A DNA stretch of 49,883 nt from Bacteroidia bacterium (GCA_044238735.1 JBIICS010000003.1:1-49883), one strand, 5' to 3'. Positions 1,285 to 49,883 are shown, counted from the first letter of the stretch. Numbers and translations are program-made. Notes: generated by a model not told the origin, from the letters alone.

Positions 1285-4200
1285 CTAACTCTCAATCCAC
1301 TTGCGTGCATTAACAAACGCTTCTATCCATGGTGAAATTTCATCTCTATTTTCTTTGTCCGGATAATAGGCCCAGTTCCAAGGAAAGATAGAACGCTCAA
1401 TGTGTGGCATCATTACTAAATGACGGCCTGTTTTATCGCACATCATGGCTGTGCTAAAGTCAGATCCGTTAGGGTTTGCAGGATAATTTTCGTATGCATA
1501 CTTAGCAACGATATTGTATTTTTCCTCGCTGTAAGGTAATTTAAACTTTCCTTCTCCATGCGAAATCCATACCCCTAATGTAGATCCTTCTAATGCAGAC
1601 AACATTATCGAGTTATTCTTCTGAACTTTTACCGAAGTAAACCCGCTTTCATGTTTTCCGGAAGTATTGTGGTGCATTTTACCATGTATCTCGTGTTCAG
1701 GATTAATTAACTCAAGTTCCATCATTAACTGGCAACCGTTACAAATACCTACGGACAAAGTATCTTCGCGCTTAAAGAAATTCTTTAATGCAGTATTGGC
1801 TTTTTCGTTGTATAAGAAGGCACCTGCCCAGCCTTTTGCAGAGCCCAGTACATCTGAATTTGAGAAACCACCCACAGCGCCAATAAACTGAATATCTTCC
1901 AGAGTTTCTCTGCCCGAAATTAAATCGGTCATATGTACATCTTTCACGTCAAATCCAGCTAAATACATGGCGTGCGCCATTTCTCTTTCAGAATTTGAAC
2001 CTTTTTCGCGGATAATAGCCGCTTTTGGTCTTCTTGAATTTGAATTAACTGCCGGTAACTTTCCATTAAAATGAGATGGAAATGAAAAATTTAAGGGCTG
2101 ATGTTTGTAGTTTTTATAACGCTCATCAGCCATACCGTTCTTCGATTGTTTGGTGTCAAGTAAATAGGACGTTTTATACCAAACATCGCGCGTTTGAGCA
2201 ATATCAAAATTAAAACTGTCTTCTCCGTTCTTAATAGTAACGGTGTTAGCGTTTGTTACATTGCCAATTTTGAATAGTTCTATATTGGCTTTGGCAAAAG
2301 TACTTTCTATTGAAGCATCGGCCTGAAATACAATGGCGATGTTTTCATTAAATAATGCTTTAACGGTGTCTTTTTCGTTTAATACTGTTAAATCATAATT
2401 AGCTCCTAAATTATTATCGGCAAAGCATAGCTCAAGTAGGGTGGTGATCAAACCTCCGCTTCCTACATCGTGACCAGCCTTAATTTTATTTTCGTTGATT
2501 AAGTCTTGTACTAAATTAAATGCAGTTTTAAAATAGGCTGAATTCTTAATAGTTGGAACTTCTTTTCCAACTTTGTTTAAAATCTGTGCGAACGACGATC
2601 CGCCTAATTTAAAGTTATCCTGCGAAAGGTTAACATAGTATATATTTCCTCCGTTACGTTTTAAAACCGGTTCAACAACTTTATTGATATCCGTACAATT
2701 TCCTACGGATGAAATAATAACGGTTCCGGGAGCTATAACCTCATCGTTCGGATATTTTTGTTTCATGGAAAGGGAGTCTTTCCCTGTAGGGATATTGACT
2801 CCTAATTCAATGGCAAAATCCGAACAGCCTTTTACAGCATCATATAAACGTGCATCTTCACCTTCGTTTTTACATGCCCACATCCAGTTGGCCGATAACG
2901 AAATACCACTAATTCCATTCTTAACCGGTGCCCAAATAATATTAGATAAAGCTTCGCCAATTGAATTACGGGAGCCGGCAACCGGATCAACCAATGCCGA
3001 AACAGGCGAATGACCTATACTGGTAGCAATACCCTCTTTTCCCTTATAATCTAAAGCCATTACCCCTAAATTGTTTAAAGGTAATTGCAATGGACCTGCG
3101 CATTGCTGTTTAGCTACTTTTCCGCCTACACAACGATCTACTTTATTGGTAAGCCAATCTTTACAAGCAACTGCTTCCAGTTGCAAAACGTTATTTAAAT
3201 AATTTGGTATTTCAGAAACAGCGTAATTTAAATCGCTGTAATTACGATTAATCGTTTTATCCAGCATTATGGTTTTAGGAGAGCTTCCAAAGAAATCATG
3301 TAAATCATAATCCATTGGTTTCACTCCTGTGTTTTTGGATACAAAGGTAAAGCGATGATCGTTGGTTACATCTCCAACGGCATACATCGGTGAGCGCTCG
3401 CGGTCTGCCACTCTTTTTAATGTTTCCAGGTCGCCTTCGCCAATAACTAATCCCATTCTTTCCTGAGATTCATTCCCAATAATTTCTTTTGCTGATAATG
3501 TAGGGTCACCTACCGGTAATTTATCCATGTCAATTAAACCACCAGTAGCTTCAACCAGCTCAGATAAACAGTTTAAGTGGCCGCCGGCACCATGATCGTG
3601 TATGGATAAAATTGGATTCTGATCACTTTCTACAAGACCTCTGATAGCATTGGCTGCACGCTTTTGCATCTCAGGGTTAGAACGTTGGATGGCGTTTAAT
3701 TCTATTCCCGAGCCAAACGCACCGGTATCAGCAGATGAAACCGCTGCTCCACCCATTCCAATACGATAATTTTCACCGCCCAGAATTACAATTTTATCTC
3801 CTTCTTTAGGTGTTTTCTTTTTCGCTTGCTCCAGCTTCCCATATCCAACACCTCCGGCAAGCATTATCACTTTGTCAAAACCAACTTTGCGATTGTTTTC
3901 CTGATGTTCGAAGGTTAATACCGAACCGGCAACAAGTGGCTGACCAAATTTATTCCCAAAATCAGAAGCTCCGTTAGAAGCTTTAATTAAGATGTCCATT
4001 GGAGTTTGGTATAGCCATTTACGTTCATCCATTCCTTTTTCCCATGGTCTGTCCTGCAATAAGCGGGAATAAGCCGTCATATATACTGCGGTTCCTGCCA
4101 AAGGTAAAGAACCTTGTCCGCCTGCTAATCGGTCTCTTATTTCGCCTCCCGATCCGGTAGCTGCACCATTAAAGGGCTCAACGGTTGTAGGGAAATTGTG

Positions 4201-4944
4201 AGTTTCTGCTTTTAGGGATATAACAGATTCAAATTCTTTTTCCTGGTAAAAATCAGGTTTATCGGCGCTTTTGGGACTAAACTGTACTGCTTTTGGTCCT
4301 TTTAAAAAAGCCACATTGTCTTTATAAGCTGAAACAATCTCGTTAGGATGTGTTTCGGAAGTTTTCTTGATAAGTTTAAAAAGAGAAGACGGTTTTTCCT
4401 CACCATCCACTACAAATGTTCCGTTAAAAATTTTGTGGCGACAGTGTTCGGAGTTTGCCTGAGAGAACGCGAAAATCTCAGAGTCAGTAAGTTTACGGCC
4501 AATTTTTTTAGAAAGATTATTTAAATATTCAACCTCTTCCGAACTAAGCGCTAAACCTTCCTTTTTGTTGTACGCATCAATATCTTCAATTTCTAAAATT
4601 GGTTCTGGCTTTATATTAATCGTATAAATTTCCTGGTTTAATTCAGGGAATTTCTGAGACAACATCGGGTCGAAACTATTAAAGTCAGCATCCACTTTCT
4701 CAAACTCTTCAATGCGAATAATGCCCGAAATCCCCATGTTTTGGGTAATTTCCACAGCATTAGTGCTCCAGGGTGTAACCATGCTGGCACGCGGACCAAC
4801 ATAATAACCATTTAAAACAGGTTGATTTATTTGATGAGCGCTTCCAAACAGCCAGTCTAGTTTGCTTACATCTTCATTATTAAGTGGATTTGCGACCTGT
4901 ACAGCGTAAGTTTTATTTTGCTGATTTCCGAAGAAAAGAATCAT
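1285..4944 (-). CDS. purL: Phosphoribosylformylglycinamidine synthase (large fused form)
   Basis: NSEHCRHKIFN, KAETHNFPT, GGEIRD, HDHGAGG and NESQERM motifs; C-terminal glutaminase with GICNGCQ and PHIER. Confidence 0.98.
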   Translation of the reverse strand: MILFFGNQQNKTYAVQVANPLNNEDVSKLDWLFGSAHQINQPVLNGYYVGPRASMVTPWSTNAVEITQNMGISGIIRIEEFEKVDADFNSFDPMLSQKFPELNQEIYTINIKPEPILEIEDIDAYNKKEGLALSSEEVEYLNNLSKKIGRKLTDSEIFAFSQANSEHCRHKIFNGTFVVDGEEKPSSLFKLIKKTSETHPNEIVSAYKDNVAFLKGPKAVQFSPKSADKPDFYQEKEFESVISLKAETHNFPTTVEPFNGAATGSGGEIRDRLAGGQGSLPLAGTAVYMTAYSRLLQDRPWEKGMDERKWLYQTPMDILIKASNGASDFGNKFGQPLVAGSVLTFEHQENNRKVGFDKVIMLAGGVGYGKLEQAKKKTPKEGDKIVILGGENYRIGMGGAAVSSADTGAFGSGIELNAIQRSNPEMQKRAANAIRGLVESDQNPILSIHDHGAGGHLNCLSELVEATGGLIDMDKLPVGDPTLSAKEIIGNESQERMGLVIGEGDLETLKRVADRERSPMYAVGDVTNDHRFTFVSKNTGVKPMDYDLHDFFGSSPKTIMLDKTINRNYSDLNYAVSEIPNYLNNVLQLEAVACKDWLTNKVDRCVGGKVAKQQCAGPLQLPLNNLGVMALDYKGKEGIATSIGHSPVSALVDPVAGSRNSIGEALSNIIWAPVKNGISGISLSANWMWACKNEGEDARLYDAVKGCSDFAIELGVNIPTGKDSLSMKQKYPNDEVIAPGTVIISSVGNCTDINKVVEPVLKRNGGNIYYVNLSQDNFKLGGSSFAQILNKVGKEVPTIKNSAYFKTAFNLVQDLINENKIKAGHDVGSGGLITTLLELCFADNNLGANYDLTVLNEKDTVKALFNENIAIVFQADASIESTFAKANIELFKIGNVTNANTVTIKNGEDSFNFDIAQTRDVWYKTSYLLDTKQSKNGMADERYKNYKHQPLNFSFPSHFNGKLPAVNSNSRRPKAAIIREKGSNSEREMAHAMYLAGFDVKDVHMTDLISGRETLEDIQFIGAVGGFSNSDVLGSAKGWAGAFLYNEKANTALKNFFKREDTLSVGICNGCQLMMELELINPEHEIHGKMHHNTSGKHESGFTSVKVQKNNSIMLSALEGSTLGVWISHGEGKFKLPYSEEKYNIVAKYAYENYPANPNGSDFSTAMMCDKTGRHLVMMPHIERSIFPWNWAYYPDKENRDEISPWIEAFVNARKWIES

Positions 4945-43967: not shown

Positions 43968-44567
43968 ATGAAAACAACATTAATTATTATCGCTTCATTA
44001 TTAGTTATTATGGTAATTACCCAATCATATGTTTCTAGAAACACTACATTAACAGAACAACATGCTTACAAGGTTTTAAAGATTTACAAGCAGTTTGAGA
44101 TAAGAAAATACGAAGCTGCTCTATTTTCGAGTGTAAAAATGGCAAGTAACAGTTACAAAGAGACATCGAGTATAGGTTTTAGAGTTTTAGCCGGATATAT
44201 TTTTGGCGATAATAAGAAGAATGAAAAGATTGCCATGACTACCCCTGTTGTAATGGAGATGGGAGATTCTACTAAAATGCTATTTAAAGTCCCTGCCAAC
44301 TATGCGCTTAACGAACTTCCTCAACCCAATAACTCGGCAATTAATTTTGAAAAACAAGATGAAAAATTAATGGCTGCTATTCGTTTTGATGGATGGGCAA
44401 GCGATGAAAAAATAAAAAAATACACTGCAGTTTTAAAAGAGGCATTAGCCCAAGAAAAGATTAATCACAAAAATACTTTTAGTTATCTGGGATACAATCC
44501 GCCCTATGAAATATTTAACAGAAGAAACGAAATTGTAGTTGAATTAATGGAATTTAAATCAGAATAA
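43968..44567 (+). CDS. SOUL family heme-binding protein
   Basis: FEIRKY, GFRVLAGYIFGDN, KIAMTTPV, IRFDGW, YNPPY...RRNEI. Confidence 0.9.
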   Translation: MKTTLIIIASLLVIMVITQSYVSRNTTLTEQHAYKVLKIYKQFEIRKYEAALFSSVKMASNSYKETSSIGFRVLAGYIFGDNKKNEKIAMTTPVVMEMGDSTKMLFKVPANYALNELPQPNNSAINFEKQDEKLMAAIRFDGWASDEKIKKYTAVLKEALAQEKINHKNTFSYLGYNPPYEIFNRRNEIVVELMEFKSE

Positions 44568-44579
44568 CTTAAACGTTAT

Positions 44580-46052
44580 TTACAACTCATCAACCAATTT
44601 AATCATTATCTGTTCCATTTTACGTTTCATTTCGCCTGCTGAAATATCGTAGTTATTTACTATAAAGGAAAAAGAACGTAACTCGTTATTATTGTTGGTG
44701 TAATATCCACAATATGATCTTACGCCATTAATATAGCCACTTTTGGCTTTCAAGTTACCCTCCGCCTTTGTGCCTTTAAACATGGAGGCTATTGAACCCG
44801 ATTTACCAGCCAAGGGAAGTGATCCTATAAAACTTTGTGCTGAAGATTGTTTATTCATGTAATTTAGGAGTTGAACCTGCTGGGTTCCGGTAATTTTATT
44901 CATTGGAGATAATCCGCTTCCATCTGCTAGTTTTAATCCATCCGTATTTATTCCAATATTCTTTAAAAACTGTTCAACTGTTTTTAATCCGTCTGATTGA
45001 TTCCCTTGTTTGGAGACAATAAGTGAATTGAGTTTTAGCAGAGATTCGGCATACAGATTTGAACTTTTAATGTTAGTAAAATAAACTATTTTAGATAAGG
45101 TTGGTGAAACCAACGAATCAATTACATTGAATTTTCTCTCTTTGCGAATTCCTAAATTTCTTAATATCCTTGATGTTGTTGGCTCCCCACTCACCTTAAT
45201 ACCCGAAGCGGTTAATTTATTCTTTAATTGCTGCATCATAAACAGAGATGCATCGGGAATGGAACATTCAACCTTAAAAGATTCTTTTAGGGGAGGAATT
45301 GTTCCTCTTGCCACTCTTAAGTTTTGAAATTCGGCACCATAAAAATAGCAGTTATCCCCAGAACCCATTGGCCCTGTTGTTAGGTTGTTGATAATATTAA
45401 GACCCTCTACCTTAGGATCAATTTTAATAAGATAAGTTGAATCGCCAGGATTTTTACCCGATTTAAAATAAACCTCCACCTTATTATCGGCATAGTTAAG
45501 GGCTGTTGGGCCTGCTCCAAAGTAATTACCTATATCGGTCCACAACCAGTTAGGGGGTGTTGGTGCATCATCAAATAAATCAACATCGGCAATAATATTA
45601 CCATTAATCGATTTTATACCTTTTGATTTAACTTTTTCTACTATATTTTTTAAAACCTGGTCGGGAGCATTATCAGAAAAATTAACTGATCCTAGTGATG
45701 GATCGCCGGAGCCTAAAATTAACAAACTACCGTTTAAAACACTATCGGTTACAGTTCCCTGAATAGCTATATATGTTTTATAAGTATAGTTTTCACCCAT
45801 TAGCTGTAATGCGCAAGCCGTTGTAAGTGTTTTAAGAGTACTAGCGGGAGTTAAGGATAAATTTGGGTTATACGCAAAAATTACTTTTTCGGATTTTACA
45901 TCCGCTACCACCAATTCAAAAGAGGAGTGTTTTAAAGCAACATCGTTTTTAAATTTATCAAACTCGGTTTCGAAATTAGTTTTAGTTTGGCCCTTTATTT
46001 CAGAAACAGCCAATAAGGTTAATACCAAAAATATATAAAACGTTTTAGCCAT
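44580..46052 (-). CDS. dacB: D-alanyl-D-alanine carboxypeptidase/endopeptidase (PBP4, peptidase S13)
   Basis: PASTLK (SxxK), GSGDPSL, SSNLYAE (SxN), DGSGLS, AKSGY (KS/TG). Confidence 0.93.
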   Translation of the reverse strand: MAKTFYIFLVLTLLAVSEIKGQTKTNFETEFDKFKNDVALKHSSFELVVADVKSEKVIFAYNPNLSLTPASTLKTLTTACALQLMGENYTYKTYIAIQGTVTDSVLNGSLLILGSGDPSLGSVNFSDNAPDQVLKNIVEKVKSKGIKSINGNIIADVDLFDDAPTPPNWLWTDIGNYFGAGPTALNYADNKVEVYFKSGKNPGDSTYLIKIDPKVEGLNIINNLTTGPMGSGDNCYFYGAEFQNLRVARGTIPPLKESFKVECSIPDASLFMMQQLKNKLTASGIKVSGEPTTSRILRNLGIRKERKFNVIDSLVSPTLSKIVYFTNIKSSNLYAESLLKLNSLIVSKQGNQSDGLKTVEQFLKNIGINTDGLKLADGSGLSPMNKITGTQQVQLLNYMNKQSSAQSFIGSLPLAGKSGSIASMFKGTKAEGNLKAKSGYINGVRSYCGYYTNNNNELRSFSFIVNNYDISAGEMKRKMEQIMIKLVDEL

Positions 46053-46995
46053 TTAACGTAATGGATTCGTAATCACTTATCTTACTTAAATCTATTGTAG
46101 CGGCAAATTTACTGTCGTCTGGGCCACTCATCGGTTTAAATTTAGCACCCCAAATAAACTCGTTATGATGATAGGAAAAACGTGCATAAGTATGCTGAGA
46201 AAAAGTTTCATCAAACCCTTTAAACAAAACCATTAATTCCGCATCAGCTTCTTCCAGGTCATTCGCTTTTAATTGATACAAAGGCGATTTTTCATCTATA
46301 GGATGAACTATTGTCCAACTTAAAGAGAAAAAAACAATACGTTTAAACTCCAGAGAAAGATTAAAAAAGCGGCGTATTTTTTTATCTCCTTCACCCACCA
46401 TCATGGCTAAAATCAGCTCGGCCTCCGTTTCCATGAGCTGACTGTTATATTTATTAGCGATCCGAAACATAAGTGCATGACCCTCCTTGTATGGAACAAT
46501 TAAAACATTTTTACTTTTTAGTAAACGAGCTTTAGGCCTGGAAAATCTTCCATACATAATACCGGTAGCTAAGGCAAAACCAAGCAAACCTAGCATAGCC
46601 TCAATGGCAGCCAATAGATTAGCCGAAAAACTAATGGGGGCTACTCTTCCGTATCCAACGGTTGATAAGGTTTGAGCACTAAAGAAAAAAGATTCGATAA
46701 ATGTTTGGATAAAAGACAAATCGGATGAAAAACCGAGACATTCCGGACCAATAAAAGCATATAAAAAGGCGAAAAATGAATTTGCAATAATAAAACCTAT
46801 AGTTACAATCACAAAAAATTTAATCCAGCTAATGGTAATTAAATATTGAAACAAACTGTGTTTTTCAAAAATATTTTGACCTATCCGTTGAATATTAAAA
46901 GTGCCATCTTCAGATAAAATCTTTTGACGCCTTGTACCAAAGCGATTTCCAAAACCCAGGTTATTATCATTATTTTGATTATTTCGTATGGCCAT
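46045..46995 (-). CDS. Inward-rectifier (KirBac-like) potassium channel
   Basis: FFFSAQTLSTVGYG selectivity filter; two TM helices; RFSRP, FRIAN, WTIVHPIDEKSPL cytoplasmic domain. Confidence 0.92.
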   Translation of the reverse strand: MAIRNNQNNDNNLGFGNRFGTRRQKILSEDGTFNIQRIGQNIFEKHSLFQYLITISWIKFFVIVTIGFIIANSFFAFLYAFIGPECLGFSSDLSFIQTFIESFFFSAQTLSTVGYGRVAPISFSANLLAAIEAMLGLLGFALATGIMYGRFSRPKARLLKSKNVLIVPYKEGHALMFRIANKYNSQLMETEAELILAMMVGEGDKKIRRFFNLSLEFKRIVFFSLSWTIVHPIDEKSPLYQLKANDLEEADAELMVLFKGFDETFSQHTYARFSYHHNEFIWGAKFKPMSGPDDSKFAATIDLSKISDYESITLNG

Positions 46996-47072
46996 ATATT
47001 AACACATAGGCGTTAAGTTATTCATTTAAACAACTCATTTATTATTGAATTTATTTTTTTTATTTGCTTTTA

Positions 47073-47591
47073 ATGTTAATAAGTAGAAACATTCGGATAT
47101 TTATTTTAATTGCTTCCATAGCCGGATTAAATGCCTGCAGAAGCAGTAAAAACGCTTCCAAATTATCAAAAAAAGAGAAATACGAATACTATTCACAAAA
47201 ATTGGGTTTTAGGGTAGATGAAAATAGTAATGAAAAACTAATGGAAAGTATAGTTTACTGGCTGGGCACACCCTATAAATTTTCGGGATGCGATAAAAAC
47301 GGGATTGATTGTTCGTGTTTAGTTAAAAATATATACAGCGAGGTATATAAAATAGAACTTAAAAGGAATTCGCTCGAGATTTTTGACGCCTGCAACATAA
47401 AATCAAAAGAAAAGCTTAAAGAAGGTGATTTAGTTTTTTTTAAAACCGAAGGAAACAAAATATCGCATATAGGTATCTACTTAAAAGACAACAAGTTTGT
47501 TCATGCTTCCACTAAAAAAGGAGTTATGATCAGCGATTTAAAAGAGCCTTATTTTGAGAAAACCTATTATAAGTGCGGAGAGACCAAATAA
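47073..47591 (+). CDS. NlpC/P60 (C40) peptidase lipoprotein
   Basis: Lipobox LNAC; GTPYKFSG..GIDCS, GDLVFF, HIGIY, FVHAS. Start set at ATG 47073 rather than TTG 47064. Confidence 0.92.
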   Translation: MLISRNIRIFILIASIAGLNACRSSKNASKLSKKEKYEYYSQKLGFRVDENSNEKLMESIVYWLGTPYKFSGCDKNGIDCSCLVKNIYSEVYKIELKRNSLEIFDACNIKSKEKLKEGDLVFFKTEGNKISHIGIYLKDNKFVHASTKKGVMISDLKEPYFEKTYYKCGETK

Positions 47592-47609
47592 ATTTTAAAT
47601 ATTTTTTAT

Positions 47610-47617
47610 TAATTTTG
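47610..47617 (+). promoter_or_regulatory. -7 promoter element upstream of the leader ORF and metal-uptake locus
   Basis: TAATTTTG followed by an A-rich leader. Confidence 0.65.
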
Positions 47618-47636
47618 CATACGCAAAGTATAAAAA

Positions 47637-48011
47637 ATTATTAAAAAGATAATCTCTATAATTCTGGCTTTTACTTTTCTGATAATTTTTTCGGGAAGTT
47701 CACTTATTGTTTTTAATTACAATCTTAACAAAACTGAAATAATTGAGAACTATTGTATTAATAAGAACAAACCCGAGCTATGTTGCGAAGGTAAGTGCCA
47801 CCTCGAAAAACAACTAAGTAAGCAGGAATCAACAGAAAAAAATAATCCGTTCCAAAACATTAAAGAAAATTTCGAGTTTACTTCACTCATTGAGGATTAT
47901 CAAATAAGTTTAAAATTATTTCCAGTAATTAAGAATACATTCTTTCAGCACATTAATCAAAAAGGGTTAAATTTTTACAATACCATTTTTAAACCTCCGG
48001 TTTTAGCTTAG
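47637..48011 (+). CDS. Unannotated Cys-motif membrane leader protein (no canonical start codon; ATT start inferred)
   Basis: Hand translation between stops at 47631-47633 and 48009-48011: IIKKIISIILAFTFLIIFSGSSLIVFNYNLNKTEIIENYCINKNKPELCCEGKCHLEKQL...NTIFKPPVLA*. No in-frame ATG/GTG/TTG, which explains its absence from the ORF track. Confidence 0.8.
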   Translation: MIKKIISIILAFTFLIIFSGSSLIVFNYNLNKTEIIENYCINKNKPELCCEGKCHLEKQLSKQESTEKNNPFQNIKENFEFTSLIEDYQISLKLFPVIKNTFFQHINQKGLNFYNTIFKPPVLA

Positions 48012-48084
48012 TTATCACCTTTTTACTAAGCAAAACTTTTCTGATTATTCGGGAAGGTGCTATTTACTCAAAAAATTTCTTACT

Positions 48085-49005
48085 ATGAAAAAATTAACAG
48101 GCTTATTGGCCTTTTTTATCTTTTCCGGTAGTAATGTATTTGCACAATGTAATTGTTCTTCATCGGGTTCAGCCTGCAGTTTTTTAACAAATGGTATGGA
48201 AGACCTAAACAATAAGTACAAATTTGATGTTGGAATAATTACAGAATACCGGAGATTTGAACACGATCACACACATAACCATCATCATTCGGGAGATGCT
48301 ATGCATAATCACAGTGGGGATATTAGCATTTCTAACCTCAATGTTTCGCAATTAACTTTGCTTTACAAAGCAAACAAACAGATTGTTCTAAATGCAAATT
48401 TTCCATATCTAATTTCGCAAACAACTAACGGAGAGCAGTTAACCTCTATAGGTGATGTTATGTTTAACGCAATATATAAGCCCATTAAAAACAACGGTTT
48501 AAGTATAATTGCAGGTGTTAAATTTCCCACTGGGAAAAATTTAAACTTACCTAACCAGAATATCAGTATTATGGGAACCGGAAGCTTCGATCCTATTATA
48601 GGTATTAGATTTAACAGGAATATTAAAAAATGGCTTATAAATAATCAGGCATTTTTTAAATACACTACGAAGGGTTTTGACAACATAAACTACGGCGTAT
48701 TTAATTTTGTTCAAGGACTAATTGGCTATTCTATTTTAAATACGTACAAAGATTCTGCACAAAAAATTACTTCCATGTCCATTCACTTTGGTTTTAACCA
48801 CGAATACTATGGTAAACAGCATGTAGGAAATGTTTATAATGGGAACTCTGGAGGAAATGCCTTATTTATTCCTGTTTTACTAAACTATACAGTTAACAGA
48901 TTTGATTTCGGATTTACGTATAGTCACCCTCTTTATCAATTCTATTTCGGAGAACAAAACAAACAACTAAACAGATTTAAAATTAACCTTAATTACAAAT
49001 TATAA
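48085..49005 (+). CDS. His-rich outer-membrane 'transporter' family (Phenol_MetA_deg-like) barrel
   Basis: Signal peptide; N-terminal CNC...C; HDHTHNHHH..H.H tract; SIGDV, AGVKFPTG and GTGSFD motifs; ends INLNYKL. Confidence 0.7.
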   Translation: MKKLTGLLAFFIFSGSNVFAQCNCSSSGSACSFLTNGMEDLNNKYKFDVGIITEYRRFEHDHTHNHHHSGDAMHNHSGDISISNLNVSQLTLLYKANKQIVLNANFPYLISQTTNGEQLTSIGDVMFNAIYKPIKNNGLSIIAGVKFPTGKNLNLPNQNISIMGTGSFDPIIGIRFNRNIKKWLINNQAFFKYTTKGFDNINYGVFNFVQGLIGYSILNTYKDSAQKITSMSIHFGFNHEYYGKQHVGNVYNGNSGGNALFIPVLLNYTVNRFDFGFTYSHPLYQFYFGEQNKQLNRFKINLNYKL

Positions 49006-49006
49006 A

Positions 49007-49816
49007 ATGAAAACTATATTATTTTACTTATTAATTGCCGCTTTATACTTTAACTTTAGTGCCTGTAAAAAAGAGGAAGATGATCATGACCATGATCATA
49101 ATCATACAGATACAACCAAAAAAAATCCGCCCGCTAATGTTGCTACCTATGGAAAGGTAGCTTTTAATTTTGAGAATTTTGCCGGCAATGATACCCTTGT
49201 TTTTAATCAAAATTTGATTAATGAAAATGGAGATACCCTAAAAGTTAATATTTTAAATTATTATGTTACCAATGTTATTTTAAATAAGACCGCAGGTGGA
49301 ATACATAAGGAAAAAGAGAGTTATCATTTAATTGAGCATGGTAATGGAGCATCTAAATTTTTTACTTTGGATAGTGTGCCTGTTGGAAATTATAACTCTA
49401 TCACTTTTACAATAGGTGTAGACAGTATCCGAAATGTGTCGGGCATACAAAGTGGTGCTTTAGATCCTGCCAAAGGAATGTTTTGGTCGTGGAACAGCGG
49501 TTATATAATGGCCAAATTAGAGGGAAGTTCACCTCAATCCAGTCAAAGTTCAAAATTAATCAAATATCATATTGGTGGCTTTTCGGGAGCCAATAATGTT
49601 TTAAAAACAATTACATTAACCTTACCAAATCAGCTGGATATCCGAAACAATTTAATATCTACGGTAAAGATAAAAGCTGATATAATGGAGTTCTTTAAAT
49701 CTCCTAATACCATAAGTGTTGCAACAACACACACGATTCATATGCCGGGTGTTGCCGCTAAAAATATGGCAAACAATTATGCAGATATGTTTAATGTAAT
49801 TTCTGTTTTAAACTAA
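49007..49816 (+). CDS. MbnP-family lipoprotein (copper-binding-like)
   Basis: Lipobox FSAC; DHDHDHNH tract; IGVDS..N, GMFWSWNSGY..AKLEG (WxW motif), YHIGGF. Confidence 0.8.
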   Translation: MKTILFYLLIAALYFNFSACKKEEDDHDHDHNHTDTTKKNPPANVATYGKVAFNFENFAGNDTLVFNQNLINENGDTLKVNILNYYVTNVILNKTAGGIHKEKESYHLIEHGNGASKFFTLDSVPVGNYNSITFTIGVDSIRNVSGIQSGALDPAKGMFWSWNSGYIMAKLEGSSPQSSQSSKLIKYHIGGFSGANNVLKTITLTLPNQLDIRNNLISTVKIKADIMEFFKSPNTISVATTHTIHMPGVAAKNMANNYADMFNVISVLN

Positions 49817-49824
49817 TTTAATAA

Positions 49825-49847
49825 GCCGGATGTAAATTACATCCGGC
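49825..49847. other. Perfect 11-bp inverted repeat (RNA hairpin) between the MbnP-family gene and the next ORF
   Basis: GCCGGATGTAA-A-TTACATCCGGC; no U-tract on the plus strand. Confidence 0.7.
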
Positions 49848-49860
49848 ATATCTTAAAAAA

Positions 49861-49883
49861 ATGAAAAGCTCATTAAGATTTAT
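49861..49883 (+). CDS. Probable 5' end of a downstream gene, cut by the window edge
   Basis: ATG AAA AGC TCA TTA AGA TTT after an A-rich leader; only 7 codons are visible. Confidence 0.35.

What the first reader, a model, noticed from the sequence alone, without database searches (positions are those of the whole stretch)
47610..48084. Hidden non-AUG leader protein with a Cys cluster and C-terminal IFKPP motif heading a metal-uptake locus
Seen: a 124-codon ORF (47637-48011) absent from the ORF track because it has no ATG/GTG/TTG. It follows a -7 box and an A-rich leader, and the plausible starts are ATT at 47637 or 47640. It encodes a TM/signal helix, C-x8-CC-x3-CH (47754-47801) and IFKPP three codons before the stop, 73 nt ahead of the transporter gene. 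Knowledge: Bordetella CruR (DUF2946) is a uORF protein with a CxxC and a C-terminal RAPP arrest motif that controls a downstream TonB-dependent transporter in response to copper. Inference: this is a Bacteroidota analogue in which the nascent chain senses metal during export and ribosome stalling at xPP sets downstream expression. An ATT start would add another control layer and explain why such genes are missed.
Basis: partly seen in the sequence, partly recalled or inferred. Interest (0 to 1): 0.82.

Follow-up and report, generated by a model that had tools for sequence, protein, structure and literature searches.

The report
Unannotated copper-sensor-like leader gene, ATT start
A real but unannotated 124-codon gene with no normal start codon heads a copper-uptake operon; it belongs to a very large, unnamed Bacteroidota family built like the known copper-sensing, ribosome-stalling leader proteins CruR and CutF, though that mechanism is untested here.

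Summary
Window 47634-48011 (+) is a 125-codon open frame with no ATG, GTG or TTG, the only such frame of at least 100 codons in the window. The start region is identical in two other assemblies.

It is a genuine gene. It belongs to a Bacteroidota family with 5,584 representative clusters that has no Pfam or NCBIfam model; sources call members only 'hypothetical', 'uncharacterized' or 'secreted' protein. Family features:
- an N-terminal membrane helix
- an invariant C-x9-C-x3-C cluster
- a poorly conserved linker of fixed length (66 +/- 2 residues)
- a C-terminal [IV]F[HRQ]PP, usually two residues before the stop

Family genes sit directly behind a Bacteroidota -7 promoter box (55/92, against 1/90 for the next gene). 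The genes that follow are MbnP/MbnH, TonB-dependent receptors or small outer-membrane channels. In the window these are a FapF/COG4313-like barrel, then MbnP, then MbnH.

The family start lies 38-39 codons before the first Cys. The window has ATT at both positions, and its two closest relatives have GTG at -39. About 48% of family starts are TTG or GTG.

A CruR/CutF-like, co-translational copper-sensing leader is the best reading (about 0.5). It rests on architecture and context only. Sequence membership in DUF2946 was tested and not met.

The parts
47610..47617 (+). Bacteroidota -7 promoter box, TAATTTTG (consensus TAnnTTTG)
   Evidence: Read directly. An exact TAnnTTTG lies 4-40 nt upstream of the family start in 55/92 loci, against 1/90 for the downstream gene. 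The TSS is expected 4-5 nt after the element (PMC6847099), giving a leader of about 14-15 nt here.
47618..47636 (+). Short A-rich 5' leader; contains the in-frame stop TAA at 47631-33
   Evidence: There is no ATG or GTG between the NlpC/P60 stop (47591) and the ORF. The TTG at 47615 is inside the -7 box and in another frame.
47637..47642 (+). Two candidate non-canonical start codons: ATT 47637 (family position -39) and ATT 47640 (position -38)
   Evidence: The family start lies 38 or 39 codons before the first Cys in 81/94 ORFs. GTG at -39 in the closest homologue P0002/L090 and in the syntenic orthologue L092 aligns with ATT 47637.
47637..48011 (+). 124-codon leader-type gene, member of an unnamed Bacteroidota C-x9-C-x3-C...FHPP family
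   Evidence: All invariant family residues are intact (C40, C50, G52, C54, P120, P121), as are the near-invariant N31, I35, N42, L56 and F118.
47649..47714 (+). Hydrophobic signal-anchor/TM helix (I5-F26), preceded by K3 and K4
   Evidence: AF2 predicts helices at residues 2-18 and 20-30 with pLDDT above 90. The same pattern of start, K/R, then a hydrophobic run is seen in homologues.
47754..47801 (+). Cys cluster C40-x8-C49-C50-x3-C54-H55; conserved core C40, C50, C54
   Evidence: All 259 proteins retrieved in these searches carry C-x9-C-x3-C.
47802..47984 (+). Helical end of the sensor domain (to about residue 79), then a poorly conserved linker of conserved length, predicted as coil
   Evidence: Spacing from the third Cys to PP is 66.4 +/- 2.3 residues over 256 members, and 66 in the window. 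Top-residue fraction is 0.22 in the linker against 0.65 around the Cys cluster. AF2 gives coil with pLDDT 59-71 for residues 71-124.
47985..47999 (+). C-terminal I-F-K-P-P motif (family consensus [IV]F[HRQ]PP); candidate ribosome-pause site
   Evidence: PP is present in 256/259 members. The tail after PP is most often 2 residues (115/256) and is 3 in the window.
48006..48031 (+). Predicted hairpin 1; its 5' arm includes the last sense codon and the stop codon
   Evidence: MFE structure; z = -1.97 for 47985-48105.
48035..48058 (+). Predicted hairpin 2 (10 bp), weakly terminator-like
   Evidence: Not conserved in the orthologues L092 and L090, whose spacers are 31 and 20 nt.
48085..49005 (+). 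306-aa outer-membrane beta-barrel channel with Cys/His-rich N-terminal segments
   Evidence: AF2 gives pTM 0.71, all-beta. Foldseek top hits are FapF (5o67) and the COG4313 channel 4rl8, E about 1e-8 to 1e-9. Relative P0262 carries PF13557. Homologues follow family members elsewhere.
49007..49816 (+). MbnP-family copper-binding lipoprotein (WSW motif present)
   Evidence: PF20243, E 3.6e-50.
49861..49883 (+). Start of an MbnH-like di-haem cytochrome c peroxidase (350 aa) that runs off the window
   Evidence: PF03150 on the identical contig L087 at 3254-4306, which is window 49861-50913.

Best explanation
Window 47637-48011 is a translated gene and the first cistron of an operon: leader, outer-membrane channel, MbnP, MbnH. 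Its product belongs to a very large, unnamed Bacteroidota family.

Shown by sequence:
- The protein is inserted N-in/C-out by an N-terminal signal-anchor.
- A compact helical domain with three invariant cysteines (C-x9-C-x3-C) follows.
- A linker of fixed length but free sequence comes next.
- A [IV]F[HRQ]PP motif lies 2-3 codons before the stop.

Inferred mechanism, by analogy with Bordetella CruR and Rhodobacter CutF:
- The ribosome pauses at the C-terminal PP at about the point where the Cys domain has emerged on the periplasmic side of the translocon.
- The copper or redox state of the Cys cluster changes how long the pause lasts.
- The paused or released ribosome, sitting over the stop codon, sets how much of the promoter-less downstream copper-acquisition genes is expressed. 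This could work through Rho access, through the structured spacer, or through occlusion or coupling where the spacer is short.
- Because the partners are uptake genes, CruR-like logic is the more likely direction: copper shortens the pause and lowers expression.

Initiation is deliberately weak across the family (about 48% TTG/GTG, often very short leaders). In this genome it most likely uses AUU at 47637, the position of GTG in its closest relatives, or AUU at 47640.
For: Real gene and family:
- The exhaustive profile search finds 5,584 representative proteins at E<=1e-3 and 1,078 at E<=1e-10.
- Cys, Gly and PP are invariant.
- The window copy keeps every invariant residue.

Architecture:
- AF2 gives pLDDT above 90 for residues 1-70 and coil at 59-71 afterwards.
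- Cys-to-PP spacing is 66.4 +/- 2.3, tighter than Cys-to-C-terminus at +/- 3.3. The linker is the least conserved part.
- PP lies 2 residues before the stop in 115/256 members.

Operon head:
- A -7 box lies 4-40 nt upstream in 55/92 loci, against 1/90 for the next gene.
- A same-strand gene follows in 90/94 loci, median gap 77 nt.
- Eight loci carry two copies, each in front of its own operon.

Copper context:
- First gene downstream (n=89): MbnP 43, TonB receptor 10, PF13557 channel 7, YtkA 5, SCO1 1.
- Second gene downstream (n=79): CCP_MauG/MbnH 33, MbnP 12, TonB-dependent receptor 5, PepSY_TM 2.
- The same partner set is reported for CruR homologues (PMC9426467).

Spacers are more structured than control spacers in the same loci: median z -1.77 against -0.56, p=0.007.

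Start codon:
- ATT lies at the family start positions -39 and -38.
- GTG at -39 in L090 and in the syntenic L092, with a -7 box 17 nt upstream in L092.
- Three assemblies agree.
- By start position (-38/-39), 94 family ORFs have ATG 49, TTG 25, GTG 16, none 4. By a hydrophobic-helix heuristic applied to both sets, family starts are ATG 32, TTG 22, GTG 9, against ATG 63, GTG 2 for the downstream genes.

Precedent: CruR and CutF have an export signal, a Cys motif, a fixed spacing and a C-terminal PP, and mutating these features alters regulation of the downstream genes.
Against: - Nothing here shows stalling, copper binding or cis-regulation.
- No member matches DUF2946, even at E<=1.
- HPP/KPP is not a documented strong arrest motif, and it differs from RAPP and PPP.
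- The N-terminal domain is well conserved and confidently folded, as expected of a stable, functional protein.
- Cys is enriched in the residues after PP (52/256 tails; 5.9% against 0.8% in the linker). Those residues are not yet made when a ribosome sits on PP, which points to a role for the finished protein.
- Bacteroidia ribosomes ignore Shine-Dalgarno sequences (PMC6847099 and related papers), so the CutF stem-loop/SD mechanism cannot simply be transferred.
- The window's hairpins are not conserved in its orthologues, whose spacers are 20-31 nt.
- No uniform terminator is present.
- AUU initiation is unproven. The window copy could be silent.
Confidence: 0.5

Rival explanations
1. The family encodes a stable, membrane-anchored periplasmic copper-binding or thiol-redox accessory protein, such as a chaperone handing Cu to or from MbnP, the outer-membrane channel or the TonB-dependent receptor. 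The Cys3 cluster, the conserved His before PP and the frequent C-terminal Cys form its metal site. PP is structural and gene order merely reflects co-expression.
For: - The Cys domain is confidently folded and well conserved.
- The F-H before PP is conserved, and Cys is enriched after PP.
- It co-occurs tightly with copper proteins.
- No arrest has been shown.
Against: - A linker of fixed length but unconserved sequence, predicted as coil, is hard to explain for a chaperone.
- PP lies almost at the stop codon.
- The gene is always first, directly behind the promoter, and the next gene has no promoter of its own.
- There is one copy per operon rather than one per genome.
- Unusually weak start codons are unexpected for a stoichiometric partner.
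Confidence: 0.3
2. In this particular genome the gene is a recently start-disabled relic that is not translated. The open frame persists only because too little time has passed.
For: - There is no ATG, GTG or TTG anywhere in the frame.
- AUU is a very poor initiator in E. coli (own knowledge).
- The two strains differ too little to measure selection: 4 changes in the ORF, 2 synonymous and 2 not.
Against: - All invariant family residues are intact.
- A 125-codon frame is stop-free in 35% GC DNA.
- The complete absence of internal ATG/GTG/TTG (P about 0.011) looks like avoidance of competing starts rather than decay.
- ATT lies exactly at the family start positions.
- Two further members lack a canonical codon and have ATT at a family start position: L002:1448 at -39, and L043:4938 at -42, where its paralogue has ATG.
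- The family already favours weak starts.
Confidence: 0.12
3. A sequencing or assembly error hides a normal start codon or a frameshift. The real gene then begins with ATG, GTG or TTG.
For: An A6 homopolymer lies next to the start. One family member in the sample (L047) does look frameshifted, with an ATG and a proper N-terminus in another frame (sequence read directly).
Against: - Three independent assemblies, including a diverged strain, have the same TAA AAA ATT ATT.
- The N-terminus aligns in frame with homologues from the very first residue.
- No ATG or GTG exists in any frame from 47592 to 47750. TTG occurs only inside the -7 box (47615) and out of frame.
Confidence: 0.03

Closest known systems
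CruR (Bp2923, DUF2946/PF11162) of Bordetella pertussis (PMC9426467)
   Same: - A protein of about 120-145 aa encoded by the first gene of a copper-related operon.
- N-terminal export signal, Cys motif, and PP 3 residues before the C-terminus.
- Conserved spacing between the Cys motif and PP.
- Same partner genes: TonB-dependent transporter, PepSY_TM, MbnPH, Sco.
- A spacer before the next gene.
   Different: - No PF11162 match.
- C-x9-C-x3-C instead of CXXC.
- [IV]F[HRQ]PP instead of RAPP.
- Spacing 66 instead of 45.
- Bacteroidota rather than Proteobacteria.
- Many non-ATG starts.
- Rho-dependent termination has not been examined here.
CutF and 'CutF-like' proteins (Rhodobacter capsulatus; PMC9973294; bioRxiv 10.1101/2025.02.05.636593)
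   Same: - It meets the published rule-based filters: under 150 aa, PP within the last 15 residues, N-terminal signal, and a same-strand downstream gene under 1 kb away.
- It has a Cys-rich motif and lies upstream of copper genes.
- That survey already counted 19% of 5,334 such proteins in Bacteroidota.
   Different: - CutF uses CxxxC and PPP.
- CutF controls a detoxifying multicopper oxidase by melting a stem-loop over a Shine-Dalgarno site. Bacteroidia do not use that mechanism.
- MbnP is never mentioned in that paper's text.
- Whether this exact family is in their list could not be checked, because File S1 is not held.
Secretion-monitoring arrest peptides: SecM, MifM, VemP, and the RAPP class ApdA/ApdP (own knowledge; discussed in PMC9973294 section 13)
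   Same: N-terminal export signal, a C-terminal arrest element close to the stop codon, and cis control of the next gene through a force-sensitive stall.
   Different: Those monitor Sec/YidC activity and regulate the export machinery. No sequence similarity. Here the partners are metal-uptake genes and the sensor would be a Cys cluster.

Membership tests
DUF2946 / CruR (Pfam PF11162) | Significant match to the PF11162 profile | tested here: not met
   hmmscan of the window ORF and of 81 family members against Pfam-A at E<=1 gives no PF11162 hit. A profile-profile comparison could not be run because no DUF2946 alignment was available.
DUF2946 / CruR (Pfam PF11162) | Conserved CXXC copper-binding motif | tested here: not met
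   The family has an invariant C-x9-C-x3-C. No CXXC is conserved.
DUF2946 / CruR (Pfam PF11162) | C-terminal RAPP motif about 3 residues before the end | tested here: not met
   PP is at the equivalent place (2-3 residues before the stop), but the motif is [IV]F[HRQ]PP, and IFKPP in the window.
DUF2946 / CruR (Pfam PF11162) | Spacing between the Cys motif and PP conserved to within a few residues | tested here: met
   66.4 +/- 2.3 residues over 256 members, and 66 in the window. The value differs from the 45 of CruR and CutF.
CutF-like proteins (rule-based definition of PMC9973294) | [quoted passage not shown] | tested here: met
   124 aa, with PP at residues 120-121. 256/259 family members have a C-terminal PP.
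CutF-like proteins (rule-based definition of PMC9973294) | N-terminal signal peptide or N-in/C-out anchor | tested here: inconclusive
   K3-K4 followed by a 22-residue hydrophobic helix. No signal-peptide predictor was available, so cleavage and topology are inferred.
CutF-like proteins (rule-based definition of PMC9973294) | Same-strand downstream gene under 1 kb away, in metal homeostasis | tested here: met
   73 nt to the outer-membrane channel, then MbnP and MbnH. Family-wide, 90/94 have a same-strand gene downstream, and MbnP is among the first two genes in 55/89.
CutF-like proteins (rule-based definition of PMC9973294) | Reached by iterative jackhmmer from CutF-neighbourhood seeds (inclusion in list D) | not testable with these tools
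   The supplementary list (File S1) is not held, and no CutF or CruR sequence was available to seed a search.
Regulatory ribosome-arrest leader (functional class) | Ribosome pauses at the motif, and the pause controls the downstream gene in cis | not testable with these tools
   Needs toeprinting, Ribo-seq or reporters. Only indirect support here: position, ruler-like linker, structured spacers, one copy per operon.

The most novel reading that the evidence does not exclude
Bacteroidota use their own lineage-specific class of co-translational copper sensors to control MbnPH, TonB-receptor and outer-membrane-channel copper acquisition. The class has a signal-anchor, a Cys3 domain, a 66-residue ruler and an FHPP pause site. 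Because these bacteria ignore Shine-Dalgarno sequences, the stalled ribosome must act by a different coupling than in CutF. The system is tuned by deliberately weak initiation: about half TTG/GTG starts, predicted leaderless non-AUG mRNAs, and genuine AUU starts as in this window. That weak initiation also hides some members from gene callers.
Probability: 0.35. Interest if true: 0.72.

Novelty: new variant of a known kind. Interest (0 to 1): 0.58.

Why it matters
If the inferred mechanism holds, several things follow.
- It would extend regulation by a metal-sensing nascent chain from Proteobacteria to a phylum whose translation initiation works differently. That would force a coupling mechanism independent of Shine-Dalgarno sequences.
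- It would give a function to a family of thousands of 'hypothetical' proteins.
- It would identify the regulator of the widespread but poorly understood MbnP/MbnH copper-acquisition operons outside methanotrophs.
- The skew towards TTG, GTG and AUU starts and near-leaderless transcripts is a concrete, testable case of selected weak initiation.
- It shows that standard gene callers miss or truncate some members, as in this window and in L092.

Tried and rejected
- **Family models.** Pfam and NCBIfam scans of the ORF, of 81 family members and of 8 divergent paralogues found no family. I recalled an NCBIfam family named 'HYC_CC_PP' as a lead, but nothing of that kind was hit.
- **Structures.** A PDB sequence profile search and Foldseek of the AF2 model found nothing.
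- **RNA families.** Rfam on 47400-48300 gave only a chance-level hit.
- **Upstream start plus frameshift.** The TTG at 47615 is inside the -7 box, runs into TAA at 47642-44, and neither a -1 nor a +1 slip gives a sensible route. Rejected.
- **Read-through from the in-frame NlpC/P60 gene.** Three in-frame stops intervene. Rejected.
- **Intrinsic terminator or attenuator as a family feature.** Hairpins are common, but their position and U-tracts are inconsistent, and the window's hairpins are absent from its orthologues.
- **Depletion of internal start-type codons as a family trait.** Only slight: 5.0% against 6.4% in the downstream genes.
- **Source organism.** An exact-match scan and a Peptidase_S13 scan of the GTDB representative genomes found nothing.
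- **First locus search.** The search with the 81-sequence alignment failed because no stretch was conserved enough. It was repeated with a 14-sequence alignment.

Full report
**1. The observation**

The frame 47634-48011 (+) has 125 sense codons between TAA (47631-33) and TAG (48009-11). It contains no ATG, GTG or TTG. ATT lies at 47637 and 47640, and ATA at 47649. It is the only one of 47 stop-to-stop frames of at least 100 codons in the window with this property.

A shuffled copy of the 493-nt gene-free gap gives a frame this long in 6 of 20,000 trials. At the window's own codon usage, the chance of 125 codons with no start-type codon is about 0.011.

- TAATTTTG at 47610-17
- the Cys cluster at 47754-47801
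- IFKPP at 47985-47999, followed by V-L-A-stop
- a 73-nt spacer to the ATG at 48085

An independent JGI assembly (L087) is 100% identical across 46608-49883. A second strain (L091, 6 differences in 541 nt) keeps TAA AAA ATT ATT. The missing start is therefore not an assembly artefact. Gene callers left this interval empty.

**2. It is a gene of a very large, unnamed family**

A word-indexed search found one relative. An exhaustive profile search found 5,584 representative proteins at E<=1e-3 and 1,078 at E<=1e-10, mostly 120-130 aa.

All 259 proteins retrieved carry C-x9-C-x3-C. Of these, 256 end in PP. The consensus is [IV]F[HRQ]PP, most often followed by exactly two residues. In an 81-sequence alignment C40, C50, G52, C54, P120 and P121 are invariant, and N31, I35, N42, L56 and F118 nearly so. 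The window copy keeps all of them.

No Pfam or NCBIfam model matches any member, DUF2946 included. Sources name them 'hypothetical protein', 'Uncharacterized protein' or, in one case, 'Secreted protein'. There is no PDB sequence or fold match. Nearly all 86 genomic loci examined carry Bacteroidota names: Chitinophaga, Hymenobacter, Flavobacteriales, Fluviicola, Winogradskyella, Flavobacterium and others. A few are labelled only 'uncultured bacterium', and L060 is labelled Asaia bogorensis, possibly mis-binned.

**3. Anatomy**

AF2 with the family alignment gives pLDDT above 90 for residues 1-70. This covers the membrane helix, two short helices, the Cys loops and a further helix. Residues 71-124 are coil at pLDDT 59-71.

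The spacing from the third Cys to PP is 66.4 +/- 2.3 residues, and 66 in the window. It is tighter than the distance to the C-terminus (+/- 3.3). Residues 81-114 are the least conserved part, with a top-residue fraction of 0.22 against 0.65 around the Cys cluster. This part therefore behaves as a ruler, not as a fold.

One feature points the other way. Cys is enriched in the few residues after PP: 52 of 256 tails, or 5.9% of tail residues against 0.8% in the linker.

**4. Start codon**

In 94 family ORFs found by motif in six-frame translations, independent of gene calling, a canonical start lies 38 or 39 codons before the first Cys in 81. The codons are ATG 49, TTG 25, GTG 16 and none 4.

The window has ATT at both -39 and -38. 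Its closest homologue (P0002/L090, 47% identity) starts with GTG at -39, directly after a TAA. The syntenic orthologue L092 has the same NlpC/P60, Kir-like channel and Peptidase_S13 neighbours. It starts with GTG at -39, 17 nt after TAACTTTG, and was itself mis-called as a 78-aa fragment.

The other three ORFs without a canonical start at the usual position resolve as follows:
- L002:1448 has ATT at -39, with a -7 box 16 nt upstream.
- L043:4938 has ATT at -42, where its paralogue has ATG.
- L047 looks frameshifted.

A hydrophobic-helix heuristic was applied equally to the family and to the genes just downstream. It gives ATG 32, TTG 22 and GTG 9 for the family, against ATG 63 and GTG 2 for the downstream genes. 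The family is clearly skewed towards weak starts.

An upstream start with a frameshift and read-through from NlpC/P60 were both considered and rejected.

**5. Position and context**

An exact TAnnTTTG lies 4-40 nt upstream of the family start in 55/92 loci. The figure is 1/90 for the gene that follows, and the background is 0.06 per 120 nt. In F. johnsoniae the TSS lies 4-5 nt after this element (PMC6847099). The family gene therefore heads the transcript, and the next gene depends on it.

In ten loci the box is only 4-5 nt from the predicted start; nine of these starts are GTG or TTG (the tenth, L047, looks frameshifted), so those nine mRNAs are predicted to be leaderless and non-AUG.

A same-strand gene follows in 90/94 loci, with a median gap of 77 nt. 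Eight loci carry two copies, each in front of its own operon.

| Position downstream | n | Pfam families found |
|---|---|---|
| First gene | 89 | MbnP 43, TonB-dependent receptor 10, PF13557 channel 7, YtkA 5, AraC 2, SCO1 1 |
| Second gene | 79 | CCP_MauG/MbnH 33, MbnP 12, TonB-dependent receptor 5, PepSY_TM 2 |

In the window the order is as follows:
- A 306-aa protein. AF2 predicts an all-beta fold. Foldseek's best hits are FapF and the COG4313 channel 4RL8 at E about 1e-8 to 1e-9. Its relatives carry CxxCGCS after the signal peptide.
- MbnP, PF20243 at E 3.6e-50.
- An MbnH-like peroxidase that starts at 49861 and runs off the window.

MbnH converts a Trp of MbnP's WxW motif into the kynurenine of a copper site (PMC11951088). 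The window's MbnP has the sequence WSW.

**6. The spacer**

The window's spacer folds into two hairpins, 48006-48031 and 48035-48058. The 5' arm of the first includes the stop codon. The z-score is -1.97.

Across the family, spacers are more structured than other same-strand spacers in the same loci: median z -1.77 against -0.56, Mann-Whitney p=0.007. There is no uniform terminator. The two closest orthologues have spacers of only 20-31 nt with no hairpin. Whatever couples the leader to the next gene is therefore not one conserved RNA structure.

**7. How it most likely works**

*Shown:*
- It is a conserved, promoter-proximal gene.
- It has a signal-anchor, a Cys3 domain, a linker of fixed length and PP at the stop.
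- The gene that follows has no promoter of its own.
- The partner genes are copper-related.
- The start codons are weak.

*Inferred, by analogy with CruR and CutF:*
- In CruR, mutating CXXC impairs copper control, mutating RAPP abolishes downstream expression, and lengthening the 45-residue spacing by five residues weakens control (PMC9426467).
- CutF stalls at a Pro-rich end during Sec export when copper binds (PMC9973294; bioRxiv 10.1101/2025.02.05.636593).
- In this family the confident domain ends near residue 70-79, about 41-50 residues before PP. That is close to the 45 residues those papers equate with the ribosome tunnel plus the SecY channel.
- When the ribosome reaches PP, the Cys domain would therefore just have emerged on the periplasmic side.
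- Its copper or redox state could then lengthen or shorten the pause. The ribosome sitting over the stop codon would set downstream expression.
- Because the partners are uptake genes, CruR-like logic (copper lowers expression) is the more likely direction.

I put this reading at about 0.5.

*Rivals:*
- A stable membrane-anchored copper or redox accessory protein, about 0.3. The well-folded domain and the post-PP Cys favour it. The ruler-like linker, the invariable first position, one copy per operon and the weak starts argue against it.
- A start-disabled relic in this genome only, about 0.12.
- A hidden sequencing error, about 0.03.

**8. Comparison and novelty**

The gene works like CruR or CutF on paper, and it meets the published rule-based filters for 'CutF-like' proteins. 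It fails the tests for DUF2946 membership: no profile match, no CXXC, no RAPP.

Ozturk et al. already counted 19% of their 5,334 CutF-like proteins in Bacteroidota, so the general idea is known. MbnP is never mentioned in that paper's text. Whether this exact family is in their list could not be checked.

New here, as far as the held literature shows:
- the family's definition: C-x9-C-x3-C, a 66-residue ruler, and [IV]F[HRQ]PP
- its dominance in front of MbnPH operons in Bacteroidota
- the strong skew to non-ATG starts and very short leaders
- a member with a probable AUU start that gene callers miss

**Verdict:** a real feature, and a new variant of a known kind. The mechanism is plausible but untested. 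Interest is moderate to high.

Noticed in passing
L004:6001, L005:6001, L019, L026, L028, L052, L060 (4 nt); L018, L040 (5 nt): In these family loci the -7 promoter box ends only 4-5 nt before a GTG or TTG start. This predicts leaderless (or 0-1 nt leader) non-AUG mRNAs, which would be unusual for any bacterium.
   Followed up: partly
L092:3592-3969: The syntenic orthologue of the window ORF (GTG start at family position -39) was called only as a 78-aa fragment from an internal ATG. There the leader precedes only the outer-membrane channel (31-nt spacer) and no MbnP/MbnH follows.
   Followed up: partly
window 48085-49005: The 306-aa protein has Cys-rich (QCNCSSSGSAC) and His-rich (HDHTHNHHHSGDAMHNH) segments and a predicted 12-stranded FapF/COG4313-like barrel. 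Relatives downstream of other family members carry CxxCGCS right after the signal peptide. It looks like an unnamed metal-binding outer-membrane channel subfamily.
   Followed up: partly
family C-termini (P0002, P0016, P0025, P0059 and others): Cys is strongly enriched in the 1-4 residues after PP, for example FHPPC, FHPPCC and FHPPSC (52/256 members). This hints that the finished protein, not only the nascent chain, uses its C-terminus.
   Followed up: partly
window 47637-48008: The ORF has no internal ATG, GTG or TTG codon at all (P about 0.011 at local codon usage). Only one other of 94 family ORFs (L007) shares this. It may reflect avoidance of competing starts behind a weak AUU, or chance.
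   Followed up: partly
L047:1146-1580: This family member has no in-frame start, but an ATG with a proper N-terminus (MKHLVFIF...) lies in another frame just after its -7 box. It is probably a frameshift, either real or a sequencing error.
   Followed up: no
L091:2475 (= window 47611); L089 (= window 48059 and 48070-75): Strain variants exist. The -7 box reads TTATTTTG instead of TAATTTTG in L091. In L089 there is a G-to-T change next to hairpin 2, and the A6 run in the spacer is A5.
   Followed up: no
window 46045-46995 (-) and 43968-44567 (+): A Kir-like K+ channel (Ion_trans_2 + IRK_C) and a SOUL haem-binding protein lie just upstream of the locus. They are conserved in synteny with NlpC/P60 and Peptidase_S13 in L092.
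   Followed up: no
L004:4378-4776 (-): In Fluviicola taffensis a second family copy lies on the opposite strand. It sits between a SCO1/SenC gene upstream and an AraC regulator downstream, not at the head of an operon like the other copies. This is an exception to the first-gene pattern.
   Followed up: no
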